Below the pieces are notes generated by a model. It saw only the letters and a program-made list of their open reading frames with translations. It was not told where the DNA came from and ran no database searches. A stretch of DNA of 32,000 bases from Prochlorococcus sp. MIT 0801 (GTDB lineage: Bacteria; Cyanobacteriota; Cyanobacteriia; PCC-6307; Cyanobiaceae), in assembly GCF_000757865.1 (NCBI RefSeq), contig NZ_CP007754.1:1320001-1352000 (forward strand), written 5' to 3'. Of this stretch, positions 17 to 13,244 are shown one piece after another. The translations under genes and the position numbers were made by a program. Each line of letters opens with the position of its first letter. Position 1 is the stretch's first letter.

Positions 17-43
17 AGCTGCAATTAATTTGCAGCTTTTTTT
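17..43 (+). terminator. Rho-independent terminator candidate for a + strand gene lying left of the window
   Basis: Perfect 8-bp stem agctgcaa (17-24) / ttgcagct (30-37) with a 5-nt loop ttaat, running into a T-tract that ends at 43. Confidence 0.55.
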
Positions 44-135
44 GTGCGTTGAATAATAACTCATAAAAATATAGCCATACCAATGCATTAAAAGCAAAAT
101 CTTGGTTGGAGAATAAAGTTAAAGGATAGAAAGTT
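42..135. repeat. ychF-3'-end repeat, copy 1 (degenerate, core plus right arm)
   Basis: Positions 42-63 match the 22-nt ychF terminal core ctagacgttgaataaaaactcc at about 16/22. The next stretch, agccataccaatgcattaaaagcaaaatcttggttggagaataaagttaaag, aligns with the shared arm agtcatgccaatcgattacaagcaaaaatcgcggttagacttaagttagaag of copies 4 and 5. Confidence 0.5.
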
Positions 136-367
136 TTGCGAGATTGAAGCTCTCCTAAAAGTCAAATTGTCTTCGGAGAAAATCCCATTTCATTCCTTAA
201 TAAGCCAAAACCCCTGAATTTATCAAGCAAAATCATTAAGCAAAACCTGTTATTACAGTAAAAAGGCCTTTGTTTTCAGAGATGAATTATTTTCATTACA
301 AAAATTGGTTAGGAAAGCGTTTTTCCTAGCACTTCAGAGTGAGTCCATCAAATAATTTCTATACAAT

Positions 368-1216
368 TCAGATAATTTCAATATTCCAATGTAATTCACT
401 TTTCAAGTCAGGAGCACCAGTAAAACTTCCTCTTACTGGTGCTACAAGTTCAGACTTAGAAGAAGAGGCTAGGGTTATATATTTACTATTAATCAAACCA
501 CAACCGCTTGGATCAAATCCTCTCCATCCAAAACCAGGTATAAAAATCTCAGTCCATGCATGAAGTTCATATTTTTCTGGGGGTTGGTCCATAAATTGAT
601 ACCCGCTAACGAAACGACTAGGTATGCCAACGGATCGACAAGTCTCCATTAACAAAATTGCCAAATCCCTGCAAGAACCAACTCTCTCTCTAAGAGTTCT
701 TGCTGCAGTCCATGCAGGTCCAAGATGTCTAGGTGTATATGTAACCCTATCTTTTATTAGAGCGATTAATTTATATAAAAAGTCCAATACATTATTTTCG
801 ATCCCTACTAATGCCTCTTGAGCAATTTGAATTGCTGCTGGATCATGTTGTCCATTAAGCAACCAACCTTGAATAAATCCATTAAGTGAGCTATTTTCTG
901 CTTCTATTTTCATAGGTAAACTTAGGTCATTATCATTTTTTAATTTATATAAATCTGGATGAATCTGCGTCTCGATTTCACTTTCTGCCTTAATAAGAAG
1001 AGAATTAGTAGGATCTTTAAAAAACACCTTAAAAATATCATCTCCATTTTCAGAGATTAAAGGAAATATTAAATGAGGGTAAGGATTAATTTCAAGACTA
1101 AAATAATTTAACTTCTGGAAACCCCCAGACCTGGGTTTCATACAAATCAAATGCTCGCGAAGAGAGACGGGTTCTTCATAAGAATAAAATAGTTTGTGAA
1201 TTATTTTCTTTTTCAT
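368..1216 (-). CDS. Transglutaminase-like cysteine peptidase family protein
   Basis: 282-aa ORF with the Cys-His-Asp core of the transglutaminase-like superfamily (GSCRDLAILL, LHAWTEIFIPGFGW, GFDPS). ATG start. 4-nt overlap with the upstream alpha-E gene. Confidence 0.85.
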   Translation of the reverse strand: MKKKIIHKLFYSYEEPVSLREHLICMKPRSGGFQKLNYFSLEINPYPHLIFPLISENGDDIFKVFFKDPTNSLLIKAESEIETQIHPDLYKLKNDNDLSLPMKIEAENSSLNGFIQGWLLNGQHDPAAIQIAQEALVGIENNVLDFLYKLIALIKDRVTYTPRHLGPAWTAARTLRERVGSCRDLAILLMETCRSVGIPSRFVSGYQFMDQPPEKYELHAWTEIFIPGFGWRGFDPSGCGLINSKYITLASSSKSELVAPVRGSFTGAPDLKSELHWNIEII

Positions 1217-2187
1217 TCTTCTAAAGAATCAAAATCAAATCCCTTTTCATTTATAAAATAAAAGCTATGTATAAGATCATTTAATTTATTTAAGTCAATT
1301 TGAAGGCTATCAATAGCCTCATGTAAACCATTTTTAATTAAGTTATCTATTCTTACAAAACTCCATTTTGATAGTAATAAACCTATTAAACATTCTAGAT
1401 CATTTGGCTTCTGAGAAACAGGGGAATTTTGAATCTTACCTAAAGATTCTTTAATGCCCTCAAGACAAAATCTCACAGATCTGGGAAAAATAGGATCTAA
1501 TAGTAAAAAACTTGCAATTGCATTAGGAGTTATTGATCCTTGTTCAGATCTTCTAAACATTTGATAAGCTCCCGCTGAGCGTAATAAAGAAATCCATTGC
1601 AGTTCATCTAAGGCTCCTCCAAGCTCATTTAGATTTGGTAAAAGCAAAAAATATTTCACATCTAATATTCTAGAAGTTTTATCCGCTCTCTCAATCAACC
1701 TTCCTAATTTACTAAAATGCCATGCAATATCATGACTAAAAGTAGCATCTGTAACTCCATAAAATAACTGGCAACTTCTTCTTATTTCAAATAATTGTTC
1801 TTGAGCAGGTTGATGCCATATGACCTCACCTTCCTGAATACTCCAAAATAAACTATTTATTTGTTCCCACATCTCAGAAGTGATAACATCTCTAATTTGG
1901 CGCGCATTTTCTCTTGCCATATAAATGCAACTAACAATGCTATTTAGATTCTCTCTATCTTTAATAAGAAAACTTATTACATCACTTGAAGTTTTATTCT
2001 TATAACTCTTATCGAATTCGTTTCTATCACCACTAGCATCTATTAAAGGCAACCAGGGTTCTGCACTACCAGGCGGACAGTCTAGAGCCATAGACTCGCT
2101 AACTTCAACAAATCTAGAAATATTTTCAGCACGTTCTAAATATCTATTAATCCAATAAAGTGATTCAGCAACTCTACTAAGTAACAT
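1213..2187 (-). CDS. Alpha-E domain protein (DUF403 family)
   Basis: 324-aa ORF. The N-terminal LSRVAESLYWINRYLERAENISRF is the typical alpha-E signature. It sits between a circularly permuted ATP-grasp gene and a transglutaminase-like gene, which is the conserved three-gene arrangement. Confidence 0.85.
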   Translation of the reverse strand: MLLSRVAESLYWINRYLERAENISRFVEVSESMALDCPPGSAEPWLPLIDASGDRNEFDKSYKNKTSSDVISFLIKDRENLNSIVSCIYMARENARQIRDVITSEMWEQINSLFWSIQEGEVIWHQPAQEQLFEIRRSCQLFYGVTDATFSHDIAWHFSKLGRLIERADKTSRILDVKYFLLLPNLNELGGALDELQWISLLRSAGAYQMFRRSEQGSITPNAIASFLLLDPIFPRSVRFCLEGIKESLGKIQNSPVSQKPNDLECLIGLLLSKWSFVRIDNLIKNGLHEAIDSLQIDLNKLNDLIHSFYFINEKGFDFDSLEE

Positions 2188-2192
2188 TTATA

Positions 2193-3626
2193 CTATTGGA
2201 TTACCACCCAAGTGTCTTTACACCCTCCACCTTGAGAAGAATTAACGATCAAAGAATCACGTTTTAAAGCGACCCTTGTTAGGCCTCCAGGACTTACCCA
2301 AGTATTCTTTCCTCTAAGAATATATGGTCTTAAATCAACATGACATGGGTATACTTCACCATCACTTAGTGATGGGACCGTAGACAAATCTAGAGTTGGT
2401 TGAGCTATATAATTTCTTGGATTAGCTTTGATTTTAGCTGAAAATTTATCAATATCTATTTGAGAAGAATGTGGACCTATTAACATTCCATATCCGCCTG
2501 CTTCAGAAACGCTTTTAACAACTAGGTAACGGAGGTTCTTAATTACATAATCAAGATCTTTTTCCCTTGCACATACATATGTTTTAACATTATTTATTAT
2601 TGGCTCCTCTTTTAAATAATATCTAATCATATCTGGTACAAAAGTATAAATTAATTTATCATCTGCTAATCCTGTACCAGGAGCATTTGCGACAGCCACT
2701 CTACCCTTACTCATCACATCAAGAAGACCTGGGACTCCAAGCATTGAGTCTTTTCTAAAGAATTTAGGATCTAAAAAATCATCATCTATTCGACGATAAA
2801 TAACATCAATTTTTTTTATCCCTGAGGTGGTTCTCAAATAAACATTATCATTCTGACAAACTAAATCACTTCCTTCAACTAATTGAACTCCCATCTGTTG
2901 AGCCAAATAACTATGCTCAAAATATGCACTATTAAAAACTCCAGGAGTCAATAAAACAACTTTTGGATTATCAGTCCAAACTGCCAATTCCTGAAGTGAT
3001 TTCAATAAATATGATGGGTAATCATCAATAGGTCTAACAATCCTGCCAGCAAAAAGGCTAGGAAAAATTCTTTTCATAACTAATCTATTCTCCAAGAAAT
3101 ATGCAACTCCTGAAGGGCACCGAAGATTGTCCTCTAGAACGAGCCAGTCTCCTTTTCCATCTCTAATTAAATCTAAGCCAGACACATGGCACCATTTCCC
3201 TAATGGCAACACAAATCCCTGCATTTGTGGCCGCCAACCATCAGAACTCTCTATAAATTCTATTGGGATAATCCGATCTTTTATTATTTGCTGTTTGCCA
3301 TAAACATCAGATAAAAATAAATCTATCGCTTCAAGTCTCTGTACAAGTCCTCTTTCTAGCTCTAACCATTCAGAGGCACCAATTACTCTCGGCAAAGGAT
3401 CAAAAGGAAGAATCCTTTCAGAACCTTTGTTACCGGAGTCGTTAAGACGAAAAGTTGCTCCATGACGTAGAAGTAATTTTCTAGCAATTTCATGACTTAC
3501 ATTTAACTGATCTAAACCTATCTTTTTTAAAGATGAAAGAAGAGGCTCAAGGGATTTTCTAGGAGAAAAATCTTCAGAAGAAAAATATTCATCATATCCC
3601 TTTTTAGGTTGATAATCTGTAAACAT
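2193..3626 (-). CDS. Circularly permuted ATP-grasp type 2 protein (DUF404/DUF407 family amidoligase-like)
   Basis: Long ORF with family-level resemblance over its full length. It ends 5 nt before the alpha-E start. I prefer the ATG at 3626 (MFTDYQPKK...), preceded 4 nt upstream by GGAGGT (complement of 3631-3636), over the track's TTG at 3638. Confidence 0.85.
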   Translation of the reverse strand: MFTDYQPKKGYDEYFSSEDFSPRKSLEPLLSSLKKIGLDQLNVSHEIARKLLLRHGATFRLNDSGNKGSERILPFDPLPRVIGASEWLELERGLVQRLEAIDLFLSDVYGKQQIIKDRIIPIEFIESSDGWRPQMQGFVLPLGKWCHVSGLDLIRDGKGDWLVLEDNLRCPSGVAYFLENRLVMKRIFPSLFAGRIVRPIDDYPSYLLKSLQELAVWTDNPKVVLLTPGVFNSAYFEHSYLAQQMGVQLVEGSDLVCQNDNVYLRTTSGIKKIDVIYRRIDDDFLDPKFFRKDSMLGVPGLLDVMSKGRVAVANAPGTGLADDKLIYTFVPDMIRYYLKEEPIINNVKTYVCAREKDLDYVIKNLRYLVVKSVSEAGGYGMLIGPHSSQIDIDKFSAKIKANPRNYIAQPTLDLSTVPSLSDGEVYPCHVDLRPYILRGKNTWVSPGGLTRVALKRDSLIVNSSQGGGCKDTWVVIQ

Positions 3627-3855
3627 ATCAACCTCCAATTAGTTAATTAAATATGAATCAAGCCAGCAATTATTCAGGTAGCTAAAAATACAAAAAAGAA
3701 TTTAAATATCTCTAATTAATGATTTAAGTATATTTAAGTACAGTTCTTGCATGATCTTCCTTTATTTCCTCAAGGATCTGAAGCATTGATCGAACTAAAG
3801 GTTATGCATGTTTAGAGAGAAAATAACTAAAAAAGATTTCTAAAATAATTCGAAG

Positions 3856-3990
3856 GTTAGGATAGAATCTTATTAAGAAAGCTGAGAAACCTTGATCTAA
3901 ATATCCCACTATACGTTAAATAAAAACGCCAGCACGTCAATTGATATCAATTGCTTAAGAGCAAAAATCGCGGTTAAACGAAAGTTAGAG
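3856..3990. repeat. ychF-3'-end repeat, copy 2 (left arm, core, right arm)
   Basis: 3909-3930 ctatacgttaaataaaaacgcc matches the ychF terminal 22-mer at 19/22. The left part gttaggatagaatcttattaagaaagctgagaaaccttg parallels copy 5 gttagattagaagcttattgagaatactgagaatccttg. The right arm gcaaaaatcgcggttaaacgaaagttagag parallels copies 4 and 5. Confidence 0.75.
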
Positions 3991-4033
3991 CAATTCAAAG
4001 AGACATAATTGAGAAGATATATCCATGATTAAT

Positions 4034-4192
4034 TCACTCAAAGAATTCTTTACTCATCTCTAGGCTAAAAACACAAATCAGAATATCATGCAGTCGAGCT
4101 ACATTTTTTGCAAAATTCAGAACGACAAAAGTTTTCCACATTGCTGGTCTTCCTGCAACAATAATTAAGTCACTTCTTTTGTGGACCTTAGC
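4034..4192 (-). pseudogene. DnaB-like replicative helicase fragment (decayed)
   Basis: A 52-codon open stretch bounded by stops translates to [52 protein letters not shown]. This carries the DnaB-family Walker A block (consensus ARPxMGKT, here with Gly replaced by Trp), the ALNIAxNVA-like helix and the FSLEMS motif. The upstream sequence to about 4250 has only vague similarity, broken by stops and a frameshift. The fragment is far too short for a functional helicase. Confidence 0.7.
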
Positions 4193-4260
4193 TCAGTTTT
4201 TTATTTTTTAAATTACTGATTTCCAAATCCACAATCAGATTCTTCGTTAGTTATCAGACA

Positions 4261-5373
4261 ATGAAAATAGTTTTTTTTGATCCTGTTCATTGGGACTATA
4301 GTCCTGTTACACCATACCAAAAGCCTTTAGGAGGTACACAATCGGCTGTATGTTATTTGTCAACAGCTCTCTCAGAATTAGGACATCAAGTATATCTTAT
4401 CAACAATATTAGCAATTCCAAAGAGATAAATGGTGTTAATTGCCTAAATGTTCGAAGTAATGATGAATATTTAAAAGAGATTATTAATAGTTCTGATATT
4501 TGTATAGTTATTGCTCTTCCATCTTTAGTAAATGGACTTAAATCTCTATTTACTGGTAAAGTTAAATTCTTTCTTTGGTGTCAGCATTCCTACAATCAGC
4601 CAGTACTAGAAAGTCTTTATTCGAGTGAAGTAAAGAAATCATGGGATGGATATATTTTTGTTAGTAATTGGCAAAGGGATAAATTTTGTTCTGTATTCGC
4701 TTTAGAAAAAAACAAGACTTTTATACTTAGAAATGCTATATCCCCTCTGATTTATAATTTATTTGATAAAAAAGAATCTATTTCTAAATCAAAAAAATTA
4801 GAAGATACTATTTTTTATAGTAGTACACCTTTTCGAGGTCTGGATATATTAATTGATGTATTTCCTTCTATAAAAAAAAAATTACCTAAGGTTAAATTGA
4901 AAGTATTTTCCTGTTTAAAAACATATCAAATAGATAAAGATAATGATAATTATCTTTATCTTTATAAGCAATGTGAAGCAATGAATGGGGTCGAATACAT
5001 AGGATCTTTATCTCAGTCGGAACTGGCACCTCATTTAAAAAAAGCCAGTATATTAGCTTATCCTAATTCATTTGAAGAAACATCATGTATATCTGTCATG
5101 GAGGCACTAGCCAGTGGATGTGCTGTCGTAACAAGTGAGTTAGGTGCTCTTCCTGAAACAAGTTCAGGTTTTGCATCTTTAGTAAAAGGCAAACCAGGTT
5201 CAGATCAATATAAAAAAAATTTCATAGATGAAATAGATAAAACATATAAATTATTTAAAGGTGATGATTGTTTTTTAGATAGGAAATTAAGAAATCAAGT
5301 TGATTACTTTTTGTTAAATAATAATTGGGAAAGAAGAGCGCAAGAATTAATTGAAATAATACAGGATTACTAA
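4261..5373 (+). CDS. Glycosyltransferase, GT-B fold (family 1/4-like)
   Basis: 370-aa ORF with an ATG start. C-terminal retaining-GT motif EETSCISVMEALASGCAVVTSELGALPE (E-x7-E). Confidence 0.8.
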   Translation: MKIVFFDPVHWDYSPVTPYQKPLGGTQSAVCYLSTALSELGHQVYLINNISNSKEINGVNCLNVRSNDEYLKEIINSSDICIVIALPSLVNGLKSLFTGKVKFFLWCQHSYNQPVLESLYSSEVKKSWDGYIFVSNWQRDKFCSVFALEKNKTFILRNAISPLIYNLFDKKESISKSKKLEDTIFYSSTPFRGLDILIDVFPSIKKKLPKVKLKVFSCLKTYQIDKDNDNYLYLYKQCEAMNGVEYIGSLSQSELAPHLKKASILAYPNSFEETSCISVMEALASGCAVVTSELGALPETSSGFASLVKGKPGSDQYKKNFIDEIDKTYKLFKGDDCFLDRKLRNQVDYFLLNNNWERRAQELIEIIQDY

Positions 5374-5739
5374 TATCATTTATGGTTAAATTAGAGGGGG
5401 TTATTCTAACTTATTTTTCTTATTAGTTATATTTTATCCTGTCATGTAGATTCCAATATTCCCATAGGTTAAATTAAATAATGAACTTTTTCATCCTTCG
5501 ACTATTAATTTTCTAAAAGCCATCAGAAACTTAAATTAAAATCTAAAGGTTTTTTTTTATCGGTCTTATATGATTTCTTAATTTTACTTCTTTAAATATA
5601 AGCCACTTTATTATCTCAAATATCAATTTTCTGGTTTCAAAAATAAAAACACTTCATTCAAGGAGGCTATATTTAGTGCAAATTTTATTATATAAAAAAC
5701 AAATTATCTTTTATATTGATATTTTTGATTTATTTATAT

Positions 5740-6405
5740 TTAACTAATAAAACGTTTATGAATATTATTTATTGCAATCATAAGTTTCATTGTTGAGGAT
5801 GATATGCCGTGGGTTTGAACTATCTCATTAAAACCTTTTCTTAGCATTGAGAGGGTTTCTCGATCTTCGTTATCTGCAATTTGACTTTCTATCCATCCAA
5901 CACAAACCATCCTCTCTCCTTCTATAACTTCTTTTACTTCATGCAGATATTTAGTAGGATAAATAATCATTTCACCTGCATTAAGTTTTATATTCTTCTT
6001 TTCAGGAGGGATGTTAAGTACTAACTCCCCGCCCTTATATTCATCTGGTTGATTTAGGAAAATTGTGAAAGAAAGATCTCTCCTTCCTTCTCCTCCATAT
6101 TGATATATTGCATCAACATGAGGTTTATAATACATTCCTGGTCCAGTCCTTGAGAATAAAAGACCAAATATTTTAGAAGGGAAAACCTCAAATTGTAAAA
6201 AATCATCTTTTATGAACGCCTCAATTATCTCATTTGAAAAGTTTTCATGTGATTCTCCTGGAGCAAGTTCCAAATTTCTCTTTGTTTCCTTAGCATTACC
6301 TAAAGCTGAATAAATACCATCTTGCCAATCACTTGAAATTAATAATCTCTTTCTCAAATCTTTATGAGTTTCATCATTTAGAAACTTATGTGCAAAATAA
6401 ATCAT
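5740..6405 (-). CDS. PKHD-type Fe(II)/2-oxoglutarate-dependent hydroxylase (YbiX/PiuC family)
   Basis: 221-aa ORF colinear with E. coli YbiX-type proteins. H-x-D in YKPHVDA, distal His in KYLHEV, GGELVL block, C-terminal helical tail. Confidence 0.85.
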   Translation of the reverse strand: MIYFAHKFLNDETHKDLRKRLLISSDWQDGIYSALGNAKETKRNLELAPGESHENFSNEIIEAFIKDDFLQFEVFPSKIFGLLFSRTGPGMYYKPHVDAIYQYGGEGRRDLSFTIFLNQPDEYKGGELVLNIPPEKKNIKLNAGEMIIYPTKYLHEVKEVIEGERMVCVGWIESQIADNEDRETLSMLRKGFNEIVQTHGISSSTMKLMIAINNIHKRFIS

Positions 6406-6452
6406 TTTATTTTAAAACTGAATGATAATTAACAAATTTAACTTATTAATAG

Positions 6453-7247
6453 TTATATCTTAAGTATTAATTGAATACGTGTTTTCTCACCTTGATAAAC
6501 ATGATTAGTAGGATCTTTTTCTATTGCCTTTTTAATCTGAAAAAGTGCTTCTTGGTATTTGTTATTTTTCGAAAGTAATATACTAAGATGGTAATGAGCT
6601 TGTACTAGATTTGGATTAATTTCTATAGATTTTCTCATGTAATTATCAGCTTCATCTATTTTACCTAGATCTTTCAGTACTATTCCAAGATTAAAATAAG
6701 CTATTACTAAATCAGAGTCAAGACTAATAGCCTTGCGAAATGATAATTCTGACTCTTCTAACTGACCAAGATCTTTTAAAATCGCACCTAAATTAACATG
6801 CGAAATAGCTTCCATTGGATCAATATCGATAGCTTTAAGCGTATAAGTTTTAGCCTCTTCTAACTTACCAATTTCTCTTAAAATAGCTCCAAGATTAGTA
6901 TAAGAATTACTCGAATTAGATTCTAATTCAATAGCTCTTCTAGTCAATATTTCAGCTTTCCTTAAATTACCAAGCTCTTTTAAAATTATTCCGTAATTAT
7001 AAAATATTTTTTGATCGGTGAAGCCTTTATCTAGAAGATCCTGATAACATTTTGCAGCTTCCTCTATTTTACTTTCTGAATACAATTTAACTGCATTGTT
7101 AATTAATTGCTCTTTAGAAAATTTATCAGAGGAATTTGTATTAATAGTAAGATTTTCTTGGATTTCTTCTAAATTAAATGGAACTGAGAATATATTTTCT
7201 CCAATGACTTCCTTTTTTCTTTGCTCCTTGTCACCTATCTTATCCAT
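6453..7247 (-). CDS. TPR repeat protein
   Basis: 264-aa ORF with about six consecutive 34-residue repeats following the TPR pattern (e.g. AISHVNLGAILKDLGQLEESELSFRKAISLDSDL, VIAYFNLGIVLKDLGKIDEADNYMRKSIEINPNL). No other recognisable domain. Confidence 0.85.
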   Translation of the reverse strand: MDKIGDKEQRKKEVIGENIFSVPFNLEEIQENLTINTNSSDKFSKEQLINNAVKLYSESKIEEAAKCYQDLLDKGFTDQKIFYNYGIILKELGNLRKAEILTRRAIELESNSSNSYTNLGAILREIGKLEEAKTYTLKAIDIDPMEAISHVNLGAILKDLGQLEESELSFRKAISLDSDLVIAYFNLGIVLKDLGKIDEADNYMRKSIEINPNLVQAHYHLSILLSKNNKYQEALFQIKKAIEKDPTNHVYQGEKTRIQLILKI

Positions 7248-7446
7248 ATCAAGTTACGAATAATCTATTAAAACCTAATTATGTGAATTTTATACCTGGT
7301 CCAATGTGATTTGGTTGTGTATGACAATAAATAAAGACTTAAAGTCTCTAATAGCTCCTTAACTATCCATACTCTTATAGATTAGTTAAAAGATAGCCAG
7401 AGCTAAGAAAAATACTAAATAAACATCTATATAGAACATTAAATGA

Positions 7447-7556
7447 TTGATATGACAAGCTTTTTATACGTTGAATAGGAACCCAATACAGACTAGTAAT
7501 ACCAATAGATTTTAAGCAAAATTCAGTGTTAGACCTGTACAACAAAATGTTAGACC
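7447..7556. repeat. ychF-3'-end repeat, copy 3 (degenerate)
   Basis: ttgatatgacaagctttttatacg aligns with ttggtatgactaactttctagacg (19/24). 7464-7485 matches the ychF 22-mer at about 16/22. The arm ccaatagattttaagcaaaattcagtgttagacc parallels ccaatcgattacaagcaaaaatcgcggttagac. GTTAGAC occurs at 7528-7534 and 7549-7555. Confidence 0.65.
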
Positions 7557-7634
7557 ATTTTTGAGACATGCAAGAACGTATAGATCTTCTCTTAACGCGA
7601 GAGACAAAAGTATTTTGTTTAGAAAATTCTTTCC

Positions 7635-9506
7635 TTATCCGAAGCCCGTCATCTCAGTGAAGAGTGCTTTGTTCTCAGCTGACTCTGCAAACCCTAAAAG
7701 AACTTCATGTCTCTGCTCAATGTCGTTACTCAGATTTCCTACCCAGTAGTCGTATCCACTCTGATCTAGTTCTCTATTCAAAACATTTATATATAGTGTT
7801 TTCACATACTGATTATCAGAAATATTCTCTCCATAACGCAATTTAAATTCATCACTCACCAAAAATGAAGAGGAAACAGTCCTAATATCATTCGCTCCTG
7901 AACTAAATTGATCAATCCAATACTTGAGTCCACTACTATCAGGGAAACGTCTAAAAGCGGCATTATATAACCGAAACATTCTCCCAGAATCTGTATTTAA
8001 ACCAGTAACTTGATCAAAAACACCTTTCACATCATCAATTAAATCTAATTTTTTATCAGTAAATTGCAAGGCAAATGACTCAAGATCATTGGAATTAATG
8101 ATATCTTTTTCTGAGAAATATTTTTTTTGTACTAATTGGCCAGTTATTTCATCAAAGTTATTCTTTGGTAATATTTCATAGTTATTATCTCCTTTGTTTA
8201 TAAAGTTATAATTCAGACTTGATCCTCTAAACTGCTTATTATTCTTATTAGTATTACTCGATATTATTGTCTCATCTATTGAGATAGTATCGGTATCAGA
8301 TTGATATCCAGATACTCCTTCATGGTTATCTTTGTATATTTCCTCAAGTCTATAACTTTCCGGCTTAGTTATCACTTTAGTTATATAATTAGTATAAAGA
8401 TCATATCCTAGTGGATTAGCTTCTTTTATACTATCTGAAGTTAGATAGTTATCACTCCACTCACCATCCAAGCTTCCATCTTGGGTATATTTTGTTATGT
8501 AACCCCACATAGAATAAGTAAGGCAAAAAAGATACTCTCTCATAACCATTGACTTATATAAATCACTATATATCTCATGATTATCACCTTTGAATTTGAT
8601 ATAATCCTTATCGTTATAAACCCCATTATCAATTGCCTCTTTTGCCGCATCCCAAAGCATTCCTTTACCTTCAATCAAGTTAAATTGTGAAGGAAAAGCT
8701 CCGGGCAAAGCAAAGTCTGTAAAAGTATGAAGTAAATGCTCTAATTGTTGTGTTATTTGATTTCTTTGAATTGGTGAGTCATTAAGCTTCCATATGAAAT
8801 CAACTGAATTATATAAGTTATTAATTTCATCATAACCCTTAGGCGCATCGTTTAAACTGGGATTTTGATATGCACCAAAGGTATTAATACCAACCCTCTG
8901 AATAGTACTTTTTGATTTCATATATTTGATAGCATTCTCTTGTGCTTGTTTATCTATTAACTCACCACTAGGATTCATCATTAACTTAACAGTTTCTGCA
9001 GTTTTCTTTATAAATTCATCATCCACTGCAGGCATTCTGCTAAACGAGCCTAAACAAAATATTCTTAAGCCATATACATCTATGTATTTTGACCATACAC
9101 CAAATGTTTCATTCGTTGAGACAACATCTCCACTTACATAAGAGCTATTAATTTTCTGCAAAGAATTTCCCATAAAGGCATGATTTTTGCATTGATAAAA
9201 CAACTTAATTGAAGTACTAGCAGGAAGAGTTATCTCTGTATAAGCTCCTTCAGAACCTGCAATACCATTATTAATTACATTGCTTTTGAAGGGAGTTAAT
9301 TTTTCTGAATCCTTATAAAATAATATTTGATGACCAAGATTACTAATGTCTGATTGATCAAATCTATAAGTAACATCTGAAAGTAAGTTTAGGCGTGGAG
9401 ACTCTATTCCATTAATAAAATAGCCTTTTGCAGAACCTTTATCGCTATAGATATGATTGCTTGTCTTGACGTTTACAGTTACTACTTTATTGACTACTTT
9501 TGGCAT
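7635..9506 (-). CDS. Large hypothetical protein: cupredoxin-like N-terminal module, unknown central region, two C-terminal DUF4214-type repeats
   Basis: 623-aa ORF with an ATG start. The C-terminus has two DUF4214-like units (RLYNAAFRRFPDSSGLKYWIDQF...SDEF and YVKTLYINVLNRELDQSGYDYWVGNL...SAENKALF). The N-terminus has H59...C106-x2-H109-x2-M112 in plastocyanin/amicyanin-like sequence contexts. No obvious signal peptide. Confidence 0.75.
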   Translation of the reverse strand: MPKVVNKVVTVNVKTSNHIYSDKGSAKGYFINGIESPRLNLLSDVTYRFDQSDISNLGHQILFYKDSEKLTPFKSNVINNGIAGSEGAYTEITLPASTSIKLFYQCKNHAFMGNSLQKINSSYVSGDVVSTNETFGVWSKYIDVYGLRIFCLGSFSRMPAVDDEFIKKTAETVKLMMNPSGELIDKQAQENAIKYMKSKSTIQRVGINTFGAYQNPSLNDAPKGYDEINNLYNSVDFIWKLNDSPIQRNQITQQLEHLLHTFTDFALPGAFPSQFNLIEGKGMLWDAAKEAIDNGVYNDKDYIKFKGDNHEIYSDLYKSMVMREYLFCLTYSMWGYITKYTQDGSLDGEWSDNYLTSDSIKEANPLGYDLYTNYITKVITKPESYRLEEIYKDNHEGVSGYQSDTDTISIDETIISSNTNKNNKQFRGSSLNYNFINKGDNNYEILPKNNFDEITGQLVQKKYFSEKDIINSNDLESFALQFTDKKLDLIDDVKGVFDQVTGLNTDSGRMFRLYNAAFRRFPDSSGLKYWIDQFSSGANDIRTVSSSFLVSDEFKLRYGENISDNQYVKTLYINVLNRELDQSGYDYWVGNLSNDIEQRHEVLLGFAESAENKALFTEMTGFG

Positions 9507-9681
9507 TTAGAAATAAAAATTCATTATAGATTAGTTATCGAAATTTTGTGTTTGGTTATCATTTAGCGTTATTTCCTAATCAAAAAATTGTTTTAAGCAA
9601 AACATTAGGCAAAGCTGATCTTATCGAAGCTGGACTCTTAAAACCAGTCAGTCTCAAAACCCAAGGTTTCCTTCTCAAATA

Positions 9682-9835
9682 GTTAGACTAGACATTAGTC
9701 TAACTCGTGAAAACTGTTGGTATCACTAACTTTCTAGACGTTGAGCAAAAACTCCATCACGTCCAGTCATGCCAATCGATTACAAGCAAAAATCGCGGTT
9801 AGACTTAAGTTAGAAGAGAAGAATGAAGTTAGAAC
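9682..9835. repeat. ychF-3'-end repeat, copy 4 (full unit)
   Basis: 9734-9755 ctagacgttgagcaaaaactcc matches the ychF 22-mer at 20/22, and similarity continues to about 31 nt (ccatcacgtc versus ccataacgtc). The flank cgtgaaaactgttggtatcactaactttctag matches 12125-12156 at 26/32. The right arm has GTTAGA at 9798, 9809 and 9828. Confidence 0.85.
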
Positions 9836-9877
9836 AAATTCAGCTCTAATATCATGGACAATCATAAAAGCACATAA

Positions 9878-10588
9878 CTAATCAAAAACCTTATAAAACT
9901 CTTCCCAGTTTTGAGACCAAAAAGAATAAGAAGTAAATCCGCCTCTTAAAATGACAGCTCTATGATCAAGTAGCACTAACAAAAGTGAGGAAAAGAATAA
10001 ACATTTATGTCCAAGCTCAATGACAAATTTATATAGCGGTAGTTTTTGCTTGCGCAAACTTTTTAACAGCATCGACTCATACAAAACATGCTTTTTTTCC
10101 TCTTCAATTATTTTCAAGCAAATATTCTTTAACAACTTACTCTGCGTGGCTTTAGACAGAGCGTCGTAATAGGTTAAGGCAATGATTTCAGCAGTTATGA
10201 GAACTGTAATTGACAATTCATAACCAGCCAGGCTTCTAATTGATCTAAATAAGTTGTCTGTCCAATGTTTTTCTAGGATTGCAATATTATTGGAGTCCAT
10301 AAAGCGTTTTAAAATATAAGAATGAGCCTGCTCTTCTCTAATAAAAAGATTAGTTATTTTTTTAATTGTTTTATCTTTATACCTTTGAGCGTAATTCTCA
10401 CAAAAATCTATTAATTTTTTTCCTTCTGAATACTCTCCTAGCTGAAACTTAGCAATAGAGATTGAGATACACTCTTTTTCTTCTTTTGATAAAAAGTGAT
10501 TATCACTCCATGTTATCTTCTGAAAATTACCTTCATTATGTAAAAAGTATTTTTTCCATTCATCAAGATCAGGAAGCTTTGCAATCAA
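9878..10588 (-). CDS. Ferritin-like di-iron carboxylate family protein (function unknown)
   Basis: 236-aa ORF with the four-helix ligand pattern E...ExxH...E...ExxH (QLGEYSEG, REEQAH, ITAEIIA, EEEKKH). The track start is TTG and there is no in-frame ATG near the N-terminus, so the start is uncertain. Confidence 0.65.
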   Translation of the reverse strand: MIAKLPDLDEWKKYFLHNEGNFQKITWSDNHFLSKEEKECISISIAKFQLGEYSEGKKLIDFCENYAQRYKDKTIKKITNLFIREEQAHSYILKRFMDSNNIAILEKHWTDNLFRSIRSLAGYELSITVLITAEIIALTYYDALSKATQSKLLKNICLKIIEEEKKHVLYESMLLKSLRKQKLPLYKFVIELGHKCLFFSSLLLVLLDHRAVILRGGFTSYSFWSQNWEEFYKVFD

Positions 10589-10697
10589 AATCTACTAACA
10601 AGTAATTTTTTATAACTTGAAAAAACTATTTTGTAATCTTGAGAGGTCAAAGTCCTGACAAAACTAAACCATTTGGAAGCAGCATATTAATACAAAC

Positions 10698-10852
10698 GTT
10701 AGATTAGAAGCTTATTGAGAATACTGAGAATCCTTGGTATGAATGAATTTCTAGACGTTGAATAAAAACTCCTTAGCATCCAGTGATGCCAATTGATTAC
10801 AAGTAAAAATCACGGTTAGACGTAAGTTAGAAGAGTAGAACGAAGTTAGAAC
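10698..10852. repeat. ychF-3'-end repeat, copy 5 (full unit, best preserved)
   Basis: 10751-10772 is identical (22/22) to 12153-12174, the ychF stop codon plus its last codons. 10724-10753 matches 12126-12155 at 26/30. The right arm has GTTAGA at 10815, 10826 and 10845. Confidence 0.9.
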
Positions 10853-10940
10853 GCAGCTACTAGGTCTCAATTCGGCGGAGATGGATGTTTTGATCTAGTT
10901 TTCTAAATAAACTATAAAAAACATAAGTTTATTGAGCCTT

Positions 10941-11963
10941 ATGCAAAGCTCAGGTCGATTACCACTAATCAATAAACTACTTAAGGGAAAAGAGGAAGGG
11001 TTTTCTCTGATTGAATTAGTGGTGGTCATTGCTGTTCTTTCTGCTTTATCCGCAATTGCGATTCCACAATTTACCTGTATTCAACGAAAAGCCAAAGCAT
11101 CTACAGCATTAGCTGCCATGAGACAAATACAAACTGAATGTGCTGTTAATACAACAAGTACAGGAAGCTCAGGTACCTTTTTGACAGGTAATCTCAACTC
11201 ATATCAAATCCAATCCGATGGATCTAACAGCTGTAGTGGTGTACAAAGTACAGGCGTTATTAGTGCTATACCTAATAATACGAGTCAATTGCCTACTTTC
11301 TTATTGGCGACTAATAATAATGTGTTGACGTTTAGTTTTAGAGGGCGAACAGGTACAAACTTCACAGATTGCTTGGGGGTGATTTGCGGCGATACCTCTG
11401 CTTTCAATATTGATATGAATACATTTGAAAATAGATTTAACCAAGCTGTTTCTGATGGAATCACATTGGAGAACAATTACTATCAAAGAGGTGATTCTAT
11501 ATATGTAATTGTCGAAGGTGATACCTGGGAAAAAGCTCTTGAAAACGCAAATAAACTTGGAGGAACATTAGCAACCATTAATGATGAAGAAGAAAATGAT
11601 TGGTTAGTAGATGAACTTTGGGGAAATGATAAGGCAAGTTCAAATCTGACCGATAAAGGAGGAGCAGTATGGCTGGGACAAAAATTGAACGATACTGGTA
11701 ATTATGTAAGCGTTGCAGGAGAGGAACAATTGTATAACTTCTGGGGACCTGGAGAATATACAGATGGTTTATCAAAAGGAGAAGAATATACAATCTTCAA
11801 TTTATATGAAGGGAATGATAGTCCAGGTAGAGATCCTGGAATGGTTAGCACGGTTGCCAATAGACAATTCAATACTCCAGAATTAATCGAAAGAGGTGGA
11901 ACTCACATTTTTTATGGACTTGCCGAAATCAAATTAAATGAAATCAATGATGTTCTTGATTAG
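10941..11963 (+). CDS. Type IV pilin-like protein with a C-terminal C-type-lectin-like domain (modular pilin)
   Basis: Prepilin leader ending in Gly, followed by FSLIELVVVIAVLSALSAIAIPQF (class III signal / N-methylation motif G|FxLxE). Cys-containing pilin globular part. The C-terminal ~160 aa match the CTLD pattern (TWEKALENANKLGGTLATINDEEENDWL...VWLGQ...YNFWGPGEY). I prefer the ATG at 10941 to the track's TTG at 10932. Confidence 0.8.
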   Translation: MQSSGRLPLINKLLKGKEEGFSLIELVVVIAVLSALSAIAIPQFTCIQRKAKASTALAAMRQIQTECAVNTTSTGSSGTFLTGNLNSYQIQSDGSNSCSGVQSTGVISAIPNNTSQLPTFLLATNNNVLTFSFRGRTGTNFTDCLGVICGDTSAFNIDMNTFENRFNQAVSDGITLENNYYQRGDSIYVIVEGDTWEKALENANKLGGTLATINDEEENDWLVDELWGNDKASSNLTDKGGAVWLGQKLNDTGNYVSVAGEEQLYNFWGPGEYTDGLSKGEEYTIFNLYEGNDSPGRDPGMVSTVANRQFNTPELIERGGTHIFYGLAEIKLNEINDVLD

Positions 11964-12016
11964 TTAATAATCCTTTAAAACAAAAAATAACAATCAATTA
12001 GGCTATTCGGCCAAAC

Positions 12017-12074
12017 CATGAGAAATCTCAAAGAGGACATTAATAAATTCTCCTCAACTTTTTAATTTCTCATG
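12017..12074. other. Long nested inverted repeat (hairpin) between the pilin gene and the ychF-proximal repeat
   Basis: Perfect 10-bp arms catgagaaat (12017-12026) / atttctcatg (12065-12074) enclose a second pair gagga (12033-12037) / tcctc (12051-12055). No T-tract follows on either strand. Confidence 0.5.
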
Positions 12075-12100
12075 CTAATAGAAAAGTATAGACTGCAAAA

Positions 12101-12183
12101 GCTAGAATAGCACCTCTTCTAACCCCTGAGAACCCTTGGTATGACTAACTTTCTAGACGTTGAATAAAAACTCCATAACGTCT
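12101..12183. repeat. ychF-3'-end repeat, copy 6: the genuine ychF terminus plus downstream flank (attR-like junction)
   Basis: Carries the left arm and core shared with copies 4 and 5 (ctgagaacccttggtatgactaactttctagacgttgaataaaaactccataacgtc). It then continues into real ychF coding sequence instead of the shared right arm. Confidence 0.85.
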
Positions 12184-13244
12184 CCTTCATTAACTACATA
12201 TTCTTTACCCTCACTTCTTAGCCACCCTTTATTTCGAGCTTCTACTAAAGATCCTGCTTCAAGTAGTTTTTTGTATGAGATTGTTTGAGCTCGAATAAAT
12301 CCCTTTTCAAAATCTGTATGTATTACCCCAGCTGCTTGAGGAGCTGTCATCCCATCAGAAATAGTCCAAGCTTTAGTTTCTTTTTCTCCAGTGGTGAAAT
12401 AAGTGCTTAAACCCAACAATCGATATGTAGCCTTAATAAGGCTGATTAAGCCTCCTTCTTCAACTCCCAAACCATTAAGGTAATCATCTCTTTCCTCCTC
12501 CCCCAATTCAATTAACTCAGCCTCAACTTGCGCTGAAATCTTCACACATTCAGAGCCTTCTTTCGTTGCCAGTGTATTTACTTCTTCTGAATAGGAATTA
12601 CCATTCGCAAGTTCATCTTCCCCAAGGTTAGTTGCATAAATAATTGGTTTTTCAGTTAATAAGCCTAATGGTTTAATTAATTTTTTTTCTTCATCAGTTA
12701 ATGAAACAGTCCTAACTGCGTTTTCATTCTCAAGTGCCTCGGTTAATTGTTCCAACACATCATCTTCTAACTTTGCTTCCTTATTAGTACTTATTTGTTT
12801 TTTTAAGCGAGCTCTACGTTTTTCTATCTGATTTAAATCAGATAACGCTAATTCTAAGTTTATTATCTCAATATCTCTTGATGGGTCTACTGATCCAGAA
12901 ACATGGATAACATCATCATCACTAAAGCACCTAATCACATGAACTATTGCATCCACCTCCCTTATATTTGCTAAAAATTTGTTACCCAGTCCCTCCCCTT
13001 TACTTGCTCCCTTAACAAGACCAGCAATATCAACAAACTCCATTCTCGTTGGAATAATTTGCTTACTATTACTAAGTTCTCCAAGCAAATTCAAGCGTTG
13101 ATCAGGTACAGAAACAGAGCCTACATTGGGTTCAATCGTACAAAAAGGAAAGTTGGCTGCTTGAGCTTGAGCATTCGCAACAAGAGCATTGAACAAAGTG
13201 GACTTTCCAACATTAGGGAGTCCAACAATTCCGGCCTTAAGCAT
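12153..13244 (-). CDS. ychF: Ribosome-binding ATPase YchF (Obg-family P-loop NTPase)
   Basis: 363 aa. N-terminal [22 protein letters not shown]1 motif, [11 protein letters not shown]3 motif, coiled-coil insert and C-terminal TGS-like domain. ATG start. Confidence 0.95.

What the first reader, a model, noticed from the sequence alone, without database searches (positions are those of the whole stretch)
10941..11963. Modular type IV pilin carrying a C-type-lectin-like head, delivered as the ychF-proximal and apparently newest cassette
The N-terminus is a textbook prepilin: a leader ending in Gly, then FSLIELVVVIAVLSALSAIAIPQF. The last ~160 residues (about 11479-11963) fit the CTLD pattern, including TWEKALENANKLGGTLATINDEEENDWL, VWLGQ and YNFWGPGEY, but lack the canonical disulfide cysteines. 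Pilins with grafted adhesin or lectin modules are established in a few bacteria, for example the modular pilins of Streptococcus sanguinis. Type IV pili in marine picocyanobacteria have been linked to buoyancy and grazing avoidance. A glycan-binding pilus subunit acquired horizontally could mediate attachment to particles, vesicles, other cells or polysaccharides, or act as a phage decoy or receptor. Its flanking repeats (copies 5 and 6) are the least diverged, consistent with recent acquisition.
Basis: partly seen in the sequence, partly recalled or inferred. Interest (0 to 1): 0.7.

Follow-up and report, generated by a model that had tools for sequence, protein, structure and literature searches.

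The report
Prochlorococcus pilin with a lectin-fold head
This gene of the marine cyanobacterium Prochlorococcus MIT 0801 encodes a pilus subunit with a C-type-lectin-fold domain fused to its end, probably an adhesive pilus component, and it belongs to a large unstudied family that sits in swappable gene cassettes.

Summary
The ORF at 10941-11963 is real. It is exactly RefSeq WP_052041201.1 of Prochlorococcus sp. MIT 0801.

- **Pilin part:** the N-terminus is a genuine class III (prepilin) signal, above the PF07963 and TIGR02532 cut-offs. Its alpha1-N is almost identical to that of the strain's own PilA1.
- **Head:** the last ~170 residues model confidently as a C-type lectin-like domain (Foldseek vs CD23, E 1e-8, TM 0.8). 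Lectin_C scores just below Pfam's cut-off for this protein, but matches 44 of 48 relatives.
- **Machinery:** published data list PilA1, PilB, PilC and PilQ in MIT 0801. The closest homologues elsewhere lie next to a PilB-like ATPase.
- **Correction, ligand site:** this head has no cysteines and has lost the canonical Ca2+/sugar site (EPN to EYT, WND to V..NR). A sister protein keeps EPN and WND. Glycan binding is therefore unproven here.
- **Correction, repeats:** copies 5 and 6 are not the least diverged pair; copy 4 is closer to copy 6.
- **Context:** the gene is one of at least six modular pilins in the strain. They share one pilin "handle" and carry different heads. At ychF such genes sit as ~1.3 kb single-gene cassettes between att-like repeats.

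It is a new member of a known kind (modular pilins), uncharacterised, and moderately interesting.

The parts
10695..10852 (+). Repeat copy c5. It has a left arm, a 47-nt core (10734-10780) that mimics the last 9 codons and stop of ychF plus 17 nt of downstream sequence, and a right arm with three GTTAGAM motifs (10815, 10826, 10845). It is the distal boundary of the pilin cassette.
10853..10940 (+). Upstream leader region shared by pilin cassettes. The first 300 nt of the cassette (att core, right arm, this leader and the first codons) are 82-87% identical to cassette c of L082. It holds a hand-read sigma70-like match: TTGATC at 10890-10895, a 17-nt spacer, and TATAAA at 10913-10918. This is inference only; the automatic scan did not report it.
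10941..11000 (+). Prepilin leader peptide, aa 1-20 (MQSSGRLPLINKLLKGKEEG), ending in Gly(-1). The predicted PilD cleavage site is before Phe21.
11001..11390 (+). Pilin module, aa 21-150. It begins F1-S-L-I-E5 with a hydrophobic alpha1-N. The model has a long alpha1 helix (aa 23-74) and a beta-sheet (aa 88-138). Cysteines lie at 47, 67, 98, 145 and 150.
11391..11474 (+). Helical linker between the pilin module and the head (about aa 151-178; modelled helices 152-155 and 159-171).
11475..11939 (+). C-type lectin-like domain head (about aa 179-333), cysteine-free. The WIGL-like VWLGQ lies at 11667-11681. The degenerate sugar/Ca2+ site is E272-Y-T274 (11754-11762, in place of EPN) and V302...N307-R308 (11844-11864, in place of WND).
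11940..11963 (+). Short acidic C-terminal tail (EINDVLD; low model confidence) and stop codon.
12017..12074 (.). Hairpin (CATGAGAAAT...ATTTCTCATG) between the convergent pilin and ychF genes. It is a possible bidirectional terminator.
   Evidence: z = -2.3
12097..12182 (+). Repeat copy c6. It spans the sequence downstream of ychF and the true 3' end of ychF (core 12136-12182). It is the proximal boundary of the cassette.
12153..13244 (-). ychF (redox-regulated ATPase YchF). This conserved gene's 3' end serves as the attachment-site-like sequence.
9678..9835 (+). Repeat copy c4, bounding the neighbouring cassette that holds a ferritin/rubrerythrin-like gene (9878-10588, minus strand).

Best explanation
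The gene encodes a modular, low-abundance (minor) type IV pilin of Prochlorococcus MIT 0801.

**Proposed mechanism**
1. The prepilin inserts into the cytoplasmic membrane through its class III signal peptide.
2. The prepilin peptidase cleaves after Gly20.
3. The pilin module docks into the strain's PilA1 pilus through alpha1, whose first 24 mature residues are almost identical to PilA1's.
4. Because of the bulky ~19 kDa head, the subunit most likely sits at or near the pilus tip.
5. The linker holds out a disulfide-free C-type-lectin-fold head that acts as the ligand-binding (adhesin) module.

The ligand is unknown. The canonical Ca2+/mannose-type site is degenerate, so binding is probably not classical Ca2+-dependent sugar recognition.

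The gene is one allele of a repertoire. A conserved pilin handle is fused to interchangeable heads. The genes are carried in ~1.3-1.4 kb single-gene cassettes bounded by att-like repeats that copy the 3' end of ychF, which lets Prochlorococcus cells exchange them.

**Status of each step**
- Shown: the sequence features, the predicted fold, family membership, the genomic context and purifying selection.
- Inferred: processing, incorporation into the pilus, tip location, adhesin role and the way the cassette moves.
For: **Pilin part**
- PF07963 and TIGR02532 score above their cut-offs.
- Gly(-1), Phe(+1) and Glu(+5) are present.
- The AlphaFold2 model (mean pLDDT 83) shows a 52-residue alpha1 helix plus a beta-sheet.
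- PDB sequence hits are major pilins: Geobacter PilA 3.5e-8 and PAK pilin 3.5e-5.
- The protein is 56% identical to MIT 0801 PilA1 over aa 14-81.

**Head**
- Foldseek against the PDB gives CD23, MGL, mincle and mannose-receptor CRDs, with E 1e-8, TM about 0.8 on the target, and 375 hits at E <= 1e-3 (full-length model).
- Lectin_C matches 44 of 48 homologues, best E 2.9e-11.
- The sister protein P0095 hits 102 PDB CTLDs, with EPN and WND aligned.

**Machinery and context**
- The window is MIT 0801. That strain has PilA1, PilB, PilC and PilQ according to PMC7994388, Supplementary Data 1.
- The closest homologues (59-65% identity) lie directly beside a PilB-like T2SSE ATPase, in tandem with other pilins.

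**Function retained**
- dN/dS is about 0.19 against the L101 ortholog, and the head is more conserved than the pilin module as a whole.

**Repertoire and cassettes**
- MIT 0801 has at least six modular pilins at four loci.
- In L082, three att-flanked cassettes at ychF are all pilins with different heads. Two of them are 98-99% identical in DNA over three 100-nt blocks of the handle and about 50% identical in the head.
- L101 and L102 show further pilin-CTLD cassettes beside att cores or ychF.

**Precedent**
- S. sanguinis PilB and PilC are modular pilins (PMC8179133, PMC9934059).
Against: - There is no expression, processing or localisation data for this protein.
- PilD was not verified in MIT 0801.
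- Lectin_C is below Pfam's gathering score for this sequence, at 20.3 against 22.6.
- The canonical disulfides and the Ca2+/sugar ligands are missing, so the head may not be a lectin at all.
- The gene lies about 400 genes from the pilus cluster in MIT 0801.
- The PilB-like ATPase next to the closest homologues is only 50% identical to MIT 0801 PilB. That opens the possibility of a different, dedicated system that MIT 0801 may lack.
- No integrase was found in the window.
Confidence: 0.6

Rival explanations
1. It is a pilin-like exoprotein or surface-anchored protein. The class III signal is used only for PilD-dependent processing, followed by release or anchoring of the CTLD. This would resemble a T2SS-type or pilus-machinery-dependent secretion substrate. 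The protein would not become a structural subunit of the pilus.
For: - The large head would hinder packing in the filament body.
- The gene is far from the pilus cluster in MIT 0801.
- The same CTLD head family also occurs in giant multi-domain proteins, probably surface or secreted, that lack pilin modules.
Against: - A full pilin globular module (alpha1 plus beta-sheet) is conserved under purifying selection, not merely the signal.
- Glu5 and a PilA1-like alpha1-N are retained.
- Close homologues lie in tandem with other pilins next to the assembly ATPase.
Confidence: 0.2
2. It is a classical Ca2+-dependent glycan-binding pilus lectin, the reading the first reader favoured. The head would bind mannose- or galactose-type sugars through the standard CTLD site.
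For: - The CTLD fold is supported.
- Family members such as P0095 and P0175 keep EPN or EPD together with WND.
- Glu272, Glu281 and Asn307, three of the five site-2 ligands, are invariant in the subfamily.
Against: - EPN is replaced by EYT, and the Asp of WND by Arg, after a 4-residue insertion.
- These changes are conserved across most of the Cys-less subfamily in the alignment, so they are not a one-off mutation.
- There are no disulfides to brace the long-loop region.
Confidence: 0.12
3. It is silent or decaying cargo: a remnant cassette left by an old integration, with no present function in MIT 0801.
For: - There is no integrase and no accessory genes in the 1.4-kb cassette.
- The original GenBank annotation called only a 196-aa fragment.
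- No promoter was reported by the automatic scan.
Against: - The ORF is intact.
- dN/dS is about 0.19 against an 84-97% identical ortholog and against more distant homologues.
- The upstream leader is conserved among pilin cassettes.
- Family-invariant structural residues are intact.
Confidence: 0.08

Closest known systems
Streptococcus sanguinis PilC, a modular minor pilin with a concanavalin-A-like lectin module (Shahin et al. 2023, PMC9934059)
   Same: - An N-terminal class III signal and a small pilin module are fused to a C-terminal carbohydrate-binding-type domain.
- It is proposed to be tip-located and adhesive.
   Different: - The head fold differs: ConA-like/LamG there, CTLD here.
- PilC is from a monoderm pathogen with host glycan ligands shown by array. 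The present protein is from a diderm free-living phototroph, its ligand is unknown and its canonical sugar site is degenerate.
- PilC needs the partner pilin PilA. No partner is known here.
Streptococcus sanguinis PilB and the catalogue of modular pilins (Raynaud et al. 2021, PMC8179133)
   Same: - Both follow the design of a functional module grafted onto a pilin.
- The architecture IPR012902-IPR001304 (prepilin motif plus C-type lectin-like) is listed in their Dataset S1 with 3 proteins.
   Different: - PilB carries a vWA module that binds host proteins.
- The CTLD architecture was only counted there, never studied.
- That work does not describe a multi-allele family with one handle and many heads in mobile cassettes.
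PilA1/PilE pili of marine picocyanobacteria (Aguilo-Ferretjans et al. 2021, PMC7994388)
   Same: - It concerns the same organism group and the same machinery.
- MIT 0801 is listed with PilA1, PilB, PilC and PilQ.
- A paralogous pilin-CTLD (Pro_MIT0801_1509) appears in their PilE column.
   Different: - Their PilA1 is a classical pilin, on average 140 aa when mature, giving drag and grazing protection.
- The heads, the CTLD and the modular nature of the MIT 0801 proteins were not noted.
Animal C-type lectin CRDs (CD23, MBP, SP-D, Endo180 CTLD2)
   Same: - The overall CTLD fold matches (TM about 0.8).
- The head keeps a WIGL-like motif and the GE..G...GE.. long-loop framework.
   Different: - It has no disulfides.
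- EPN/QPD and WND are not conserved.
- It has extra insertions (FNTPELIERGG).
- It is fused to a pilin.
- Pfam's gathering score is not reached.
Tycheposon-type stacked integrations in Prochlorococcus islands (Hackl et al., bioRxiv 10.1101/2020.12.28.424599)
   Same: - Partial copies of the 3' end of a conserved gene are repeated along an island next to that gene.
- In that paper this pattern is interpreted as successive site-specific integrations that push older elements distally.
   Different: - The target here is the protein-coding ychF gene, not a tRNA or tmRNA gene.
- The units are 1-4 kb, often a single gene.
- No integrase or replication module is seen in the window.

Membership tests
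Type IV pilin (class III signal peptide protein) | Short hydrophilic leader ending in Gly or Ala, followed by about 21 hydrophobic residues; matches the N-methylation motif models | tested here: met
   The leader is 20 aa and ends in Gly20, followed by FSLIELVVVIAVLSALSAIAI. PF07963 scores 25.9 against 21.2. TIGR02532 scores 24.0 against 16.3.
Type IV pilin (class III signal peptide protein) | Glu at mature position +5 | tested here: met
   The mature N-terminus reads F1-S-L-I-E5. The Glu is invariant in 48 homologues, as E25 of the precursor.
Type IV pilin (class III signal peptide protein) | Lollipop fold: an alpha1 helix of about 50 residues carrying a beta-sheet globular domain | tested here: met
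   The AlphaFold2 model has a helix at 23-74 and strands at 88-138, with block pLDDT of 80-94 across those strands. This is a prediction only.
Type IV pilin (class III signal peptide protein) | The genome encodes the assembly machinery (ATPase PilB, platform PilC, secretin PilQ) | tested here: met
   The window is MIT 0801. PilB, PilC, PilQ and PilA1 of MIT 0801 are listed in PMC7994388, Supplementary Data 1. The PilC and PilA1 sequences were confirmed as MIT 0801 proteins.
Type IV pilin (class III signal peptide protein) | A prepilin peptidase (PilD) is present, and the protein is cleaved, methylated and polymerised | not testable with these tools
   PilD is not in the window and was not surveyed in the paper. 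Processing needs proteomics.
C-type lectin-like domain (Pfam PF00059 / IPR001304) | Reaches the family HMM's curated threshold | tested here: not met
   The score is 20.3 bits against a gathering score of 22.6, E 1e-3, covering only profile positions 3-71 of 107. However, 44 of 48 homologues match at E <= 0.01, best 2.9e-11.
C-type lectin-like domain (Pfam PF00059 / IPR001304) | CTLD fold: two helices, two beta-sheets, a long-loop region and a WIGL-type core motif | tested here: met
   The head-only model has pLDDT 83.6 and pTM 0.84. Foldseek against the PDB gives E 1e-8, TMt 0.77-0.84, and 375 hits at E <= 1e-3, with every listed hit a CTLD. VWLGQ is present.
C-type lectin-like domain (Pfam PF00059 / IPR001304) | Conserved disulfides (C1-C4 and C2-C3) | tested here: not met
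   There is no Cys in aa 172-340. Paralogous heads, for example P0027 and P0045, keep a Cys before beta1 and a C-terminal Cys.
Ca2+-dependent carbohydrate-recognition domain (true C-type lectin) | EPN or QPD triplet plus WND motif supplying the five Ca2+ site-2 ligands | tested here: not met
   The residues are E272-Y-T274 and V302...N307-R308. The sister protein P0095 has EPN and WND at the aligned columns. The profile alignment to CD23 places GE(Y/k)(T/s)DG on GEPNNG.
Modular type IV pilin (sensu Raynaud et al. 2021) | An IPR012902 motif and pilin module, plus an extra domain that is not specific to pilus biology | tested here: met
   The same head family occurs in non-pilin giant proteins. 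The architecture is listed in their Dataset S1.
Site-specific integrative element at a conserved gene's 3' end (tycheposon-like) | The unit is flanked by direct repeats that copy the target gene's 3' end | tested here: met
   c5 and c6 share the 47-nt core at 41/47, and c6 overlaps the ychF stop. The same layout is seen in L082.
Site-specific integrative element at a conserved gene's 3' end (tycheposon-like) | The element encodes, or lies next to, its integrase; the target is a tRNA or tmRNA gene | tested here: not met
   No recombinase domain is present in any window ORF. No tRNA or tmRNA gene is present.
Integron gene cassette | attC sites with R''-L''/L'-R' symmetry, an adjacent intI and attI, and cassettes mostly co-oriented | tested here: inconclusive
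   GTTAGAM motifs (GTTRRRY-like) are enriched in the repeats, 20 observed against 8.5 expected. There is no intI in the window, and gene orientations are mixed. No attC covariance model was available.

The most novel reading that the evidence does not exclude
Prochlorococcus cells that keep type IV pili maintain an exchangeable repertoire of pilus heads.
- One conserved pilin handle is fused to many alternative heads: CTLD variants with or without a sugar site, a beta-propeller, a small Cys-rich domain, and domains of unknown fold.
- Each gene is packaged as a ~1.3 kb single-gene mini-cassette bounded by a ~170-nt recombination site that copies the ychF 3' end and carries GTTAGAA-type motifs.
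- The cassettes stack at ychF and other hot spots and move between cells with a recombinase supplied in trans.
- Homologous recombination within the handle additionally swaps heads.

This would be an integron-like or shufflon-like system for diversifying what a planktonic cyanobacterium's pili bind, or what binds them (particles, vesicles, partner bacteria, phages, grazers).
Probability: 0.3. Interest if true: 0.75.

Novelty: new member of a known kind. Interest (0 to 1): 0.55.

Why it matters
Pili of marine picocyanobacteria have so far been linked to drag and buoyancy, grazing avoidance and phage encounter (PMC7994388; bioRxiv 10.1101/2025.09.20.677514). Nothing is known about what they bind.

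A family of pilins with lectin-fold and other heads gives a concrete, testable handle on pilus-mediated adhesion or recognition in the most abundant phototroph on Earth. The family is diversified, under purifying selection, and located in hypervariable cassettes.

It also extends modular pilins to a free-living oligotroph and to a CTLD head. In addition, it exposes a protein-gene (ychF) integration hot spot with single-gene cassettes, which differs from the tRNA-targeting tycheposons.

Tried and rejected
- **Genome-collection scan wasted.** It returned unrelated pilins from many phyla and was useless for the fusion.
- **Look-ups that failed.** MIT 0801 proteins P0004 and P0065 are not indexed for the look-up of encoding contigs. 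The paralogue loci in MIT 0801 could therefore only be ordered by accession number.
- **Diversity-generating retroelement target (CTLDs are the usual scaffold): rejected.** There is no template/variable repeat pair for 11479-11963, only a 22-nt chance match (D18). No reverse transcriptase is in the window.
- **Phage origin or decoy link: no evidence.** BFVD hits are essentially CTLDs of eukaryotic viruses; the few phage proteins listed score far above E 0.1.
- **tRNA-type attachment site: rejected.** None is present in the window.
- **Promoter scan.** The automatic scan gave no hit upstream of the gene. The TTGATC-17-TATAAA match is my own reading and is weak evidence.
- **Literature.** Searches for a pilin plus C-type lectin in Prochlorococcus or MIT 0801 found nothing. 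Searches for a ychF island in Prochlorococcus also found nothing relevant.
Full report
**1. Observation**

The + strand ORF from ATG 10941 to TAG 11961-11963 encodes 340 aa. Residues 172-340 contain no cysteine.

An exact-sequence look-up shows the product is WP_052041201.1. RefSeq names it a [quoted passage not shown]. All tested neighbours (YchF, the RND adaptor, the DUF4214 protein and others) are exact Prochlorococcus sp. MIT 0801 proteins. The window is therefore from that low-light clade I strain. The original GenBank record (AIQ97736.1, EW15_1644) called only the last 196 aa, from an internal TTG.

**2. The pilin half**

- PF07963 scores 25.9 bits against a cut-off of 21.2.
- TIGR02532 scores 24.0 bits against 16.3.
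- The 20-aa hydrophilic leader ends in Gly. The mature end is FSLIE..., with Glu5.
- With a 48-sequence alignment, AlphaFold2 gives mean pLDDT 83. The model has a 52-residue alpha1 helix (aa 23-74), a beta-sheet (aa 88-138) and a helical linker before the second domain.
- By sequence, the module hits solved major pilins: Geobacter PilA at 3.5e-8 and Pseudomonas PAK pilin at 3.5e-5.
- It is 56% identical to MIT 0801's own PilA1 over aa 14-81, and alpha1-N is nearly identical. This is what one expects of a subunit that must be cut by the same peptidase and pack into the same filament.

**3. The head**

- Pfam Lectin_C is just sub-threshold for this sequence: 20.3 bits against 22.6, covering only the N-terminal two-thirds of the model.
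- phmmer against the PDB finds CTLDs almost exclusively among its 25 hits (the one exception is a CTLD-fold type II antifreeze protein), but weakly; the best is CLEC4C at 8e-4.
- The family settles the matter. Of 48 homologues, 44 match Lectin_C, best 2.9e-11.
- The sister protein P0095 is 54-56% identical in the head. It hits 102 solved CTLDs down to 7e-11.
- The full-length model and a head-only model (pLDDT 83.6, pTM 0.84) both retrieve CD23, MGL, mincle and mannose-receptor CRDs. E is 1e-8, TM on the target is 0.77-0.84, and 375 hits reach E <= 1e-3.

**4. What kind of CTLD**

P0095 has GEPNNG...GMWNDQP, the textbook mannose-type Ca2+ site. It aligns residue for residue with Endo180 CTLD2.

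- In the window protein, the aligned residues are G-E272-Y-T274-DG and GMV302-STVA-N307-R308.
- A subfamily profile aligns GE(Y/k)(T/s)DG onto GEPNNG of an EPN-engineered CD23.
- Three of the five site-2 ligands survive (Glu272, Glu281, Asn307). These three are invariant in the subfamily.
- The Asn of EPN and the Asp of WND are replaced, the latter by Arg. Four residues are inserted.
- The disulfides seen in paralogous heads are gone.
- These changes are conserved across most of the Cys-less subfamily in the alignment. dN/dS is about 0.17-0.19, and the head is more conserved than the pilin module as a whole.

The head is therefore functional but probably does not bind sugar in the classical Ca2+-dependent way. 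"Lectin" describes the fold here, not a demonstrated activity.

**5. Machinery**

The window holds no pil genes. Supplementary Data 1 of Aguilo-Ferretjans et al. 2021 lists, for MIT 0801:

- PilA1 (1246), PilC (1242), PilQ (1235) and PilB (1244)
- in the PilE column, a paralogous pilin-CTLD (1509)

The sister strains NATL1A, NATL2A and PAC1 have none of these. I confirmed that the PilA1 and PilC sequences are MIT 0801 proteins.

Independent support comes from other genomes. The closest homologues (P0003 at 65% and P0007 at 59% identity) lie immediately beside a convergent PilB-like T2SSE ATPase. In L085 they are in tandem with two more pilins. That ATPase is only 50% identical to MIT 0801 PilB, so it could belong to a second system. 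PilD was not checked.

**6. A family with one handle and many heads**

- The full protein has 212 homologues at E <= 1e-3. Most are 300-350 aa.
- The head alone matches 613 cluster representatives at 50% identity. These include giant proteins with 4-7 CTLD repeats that keep EPN.
- A metagenome scan found 22 marine loci with GC of 28-38%. Wherever the 5' end is present, the head is fused to a pilin module. The genes often lie in tandem arrays of 3-4 pilins.
- MIT 0801 itself has at least six modular pilins at four loci, ordered by accession number:
  - AIQ97405 (pilin plus TolB-like beta-propeller) next to AIQ97406
  - AIQ97520, which RefSeq calls a "lectin-like protein"
  - AIQ97601 next to AIQ97602
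  - AIQ97736, this gene
  - all lie 67 to about 400 genes from the pilus cluster at about AIQ97334-97338
- P0045 and P0065 share an identical handle and have different heads.

**7. Cassette context**

The gene lies between repeat c5 (10695-10852) and repeat c6 (12097-12182). Copy c6 overlaps the true 3' end of ychF, whose stop is at 12153. Further copies lie at about 25-99, 3853-4010, 7408-7565 and 9678-9835.

- Copies c2-c5 (c1 is cut by the window edge) have a left arm, a 47-nt core that mimics the last nine ychF codons, and a right arm rich in GTTAGAM motifs. The window holds 20 such motifs against 8.5 expected, and 11 of them lie inside the repeats.
- Locus L082 comes from an NCBI genome assembly (GCA_003216695.1) with the same ychF-MFP-polA-cysS synteny. 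There, three consecutive 1.27-1.32 kb units next to ychF each hold one modular pilin, preceded by the core about 190-200 nt upstream of the start. One has an unknown head, one a Cys-containing CTLD, and one a PD-repeat plus a Cys-rich domain.
- Two of the L082 units are 98-99% identical in DNA over three 100-nt blocks of the handle. Identity falls to about 50% at the module boundary. This is a head swap.
- L101 carries an 84-97% identical ortholog of this gene, behind an att core with 4 mismatches. A different neighbour lies upstream of it: another pilin-CTLD.
- L102 has the ychF end, the att core and a pilin-CTLD in the opposite orientation.

This is the pattern that the tycheposon paper attributes to successive site-specific integrations. 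Here, though, the target is a protein gene, there is no tRNA, and there is no integrase in the window.

Copy c4 is closer to c6 than c5 is: 43 against 41 of 47 in the core, and 70 against 66 of 87 over the longer region. The proximal copies c4 and c5 are clearly less diverged than c2 and c3, at 34-35 of 47. "Newest" therefore rests only on position. GC content (0.35-0.36 across the gene) is like the neighbouring chromosome, which points to exchange within Prochlorococcus.

**8. Comparison with what is known**

Modular pilins are an established kind. Examples are S. sanguinis PilB with a vWA module and PilC with a ConA-like lectin module that binds glycans in a tip complex.

The architecture IPR012902-IPR001304 is already counted, with 3 proteins, in Raynaud et al.'s Dataset S1. 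I found no paper that studies a pilin with a CTLD head, or these Prochlorococcus proteins.

The protein meets the sequence, fold and machinery criteria I could test for a type IV pilin (PilD and processing remain untested) and for a modular pilin. It has the CTLD fold. It fails the Pfam threshold, the disulfide criterion and the sugar-site criterion of true C-type lectins.

**9. Verdict**

This is a real, intact, selectively maintained modular type IV pilin with a divergent, disulfide-free CTLD head, in a piliated Prochlorococcus strain. It is carried as the ychF-proximal single-gene cassette of a repeat-bounded array.

- Novelty: a new member of a known kind.
- Interest: moderate, at 0.55.
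- The more novel possibility is a cassette-borne, head-swapping repertoire of pilus adhesins. The context data suggest it but do not prove it (probability 0.3).

Noticed in passing
window 25-12182 (repeat copies at about 25-99, 3853-4010, 7408-7565, 9678-9835, 10695-10852, 12097-12182): Downstream of ychF lies an array of units of about 1-3.9 kb, each bounded by a partial copy of the ychF 3' end plus conserved arms. Besides the pilin, the cargo includes a ferritin/rubrerythrin-like protein, a 623-aa DUF4214 protein, a block with TPR, 2OG-Fe(II) oxygenase and GT4 genes, and an operon with a circularly permuted ATP-grasp, an alpha-E domain protein and a transglutaminase. There is no integrase and no tRNA in the window.
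   Followed up: partly
window 9682-9834, 10815-10851, 7528-7555, 12117-12123: GTTAGAM heptamers are enriched (20 observed against 8.5 expected) and cluster in the repeat arms. In copy c4 they form an inverted pair, GTTAGAC-N9-GTCTAAC; copy c6 has an imperfect one (GCTAGAA-N9-TTCTAAC) and the perfect GTTAGAA-N9-TTCTAAC form is seen in L082. In the right arms they form 3 direct copies. This layout resembles the core and arm sites of a tyrosine recombinase, or attC-like GTTRRRY cores.
   Followed up: partly
L082 252-4178: Three consecutive att-flanked cassettes at ychF all encode modular pilins with different heads. Cassettes a and b are 98-99% identical in DNA over three 100-nt blocks of the handle and about 50% identical afterwards. 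This indicates head replacement by recombination at the module boundary.
   Followed up: yes
window 11379-11963: The GenBank annotation of MIT 0801 (AIQ97736.1, EW15_1644) calls only a 196-aa C-terminal fragment from an internal TTG. Two paralogues are annotated as "nuclease (SNase-like) protein". RefSeq has corrected the models, and it names one paralogue a "lectin-like protein".
   Followed up: yes
L081 2741-4441; L085 5575-7254: The PilB-like ATPase next to the closest pilin-CTLD homologues is only 50% identical to MIT 0801 PilB and has a different N-terminus. It may be a second type IV filament system dedicated to these modular pilins.
   Followed up: partly
proteins P0167, P0170, P0171, P0177: The same CTLD head family (RGDSAYVIVEGPTWEEAEANA..LGGHLVTIN ... 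GIAEI) occurs as 4-7 tandem repeats in giant proteins of 575-6442 aa from public genomes and metagenomes that keep EPN motifs. These are a likely source pool for the pilin heads.
   Followed up: no
MIT 0801 protein P0091 (AIQ97405): This 569-aa paralogue fuses the same pilin handle to a TolB-like beta-propeller (PF07676, PF26549, PF26550). It is encoded in tandem with a pilin-CTLD (AIQ97406).
   Followed up: no
window 12017-12074: A 10-bp perfect inverted repeat forms a hairpin (z = -2.3) between the convergent pilin and ychF genes. It lacks a U-tract. It may be a bidirectional terminator or part of the recombination site.
   Followed up: partly
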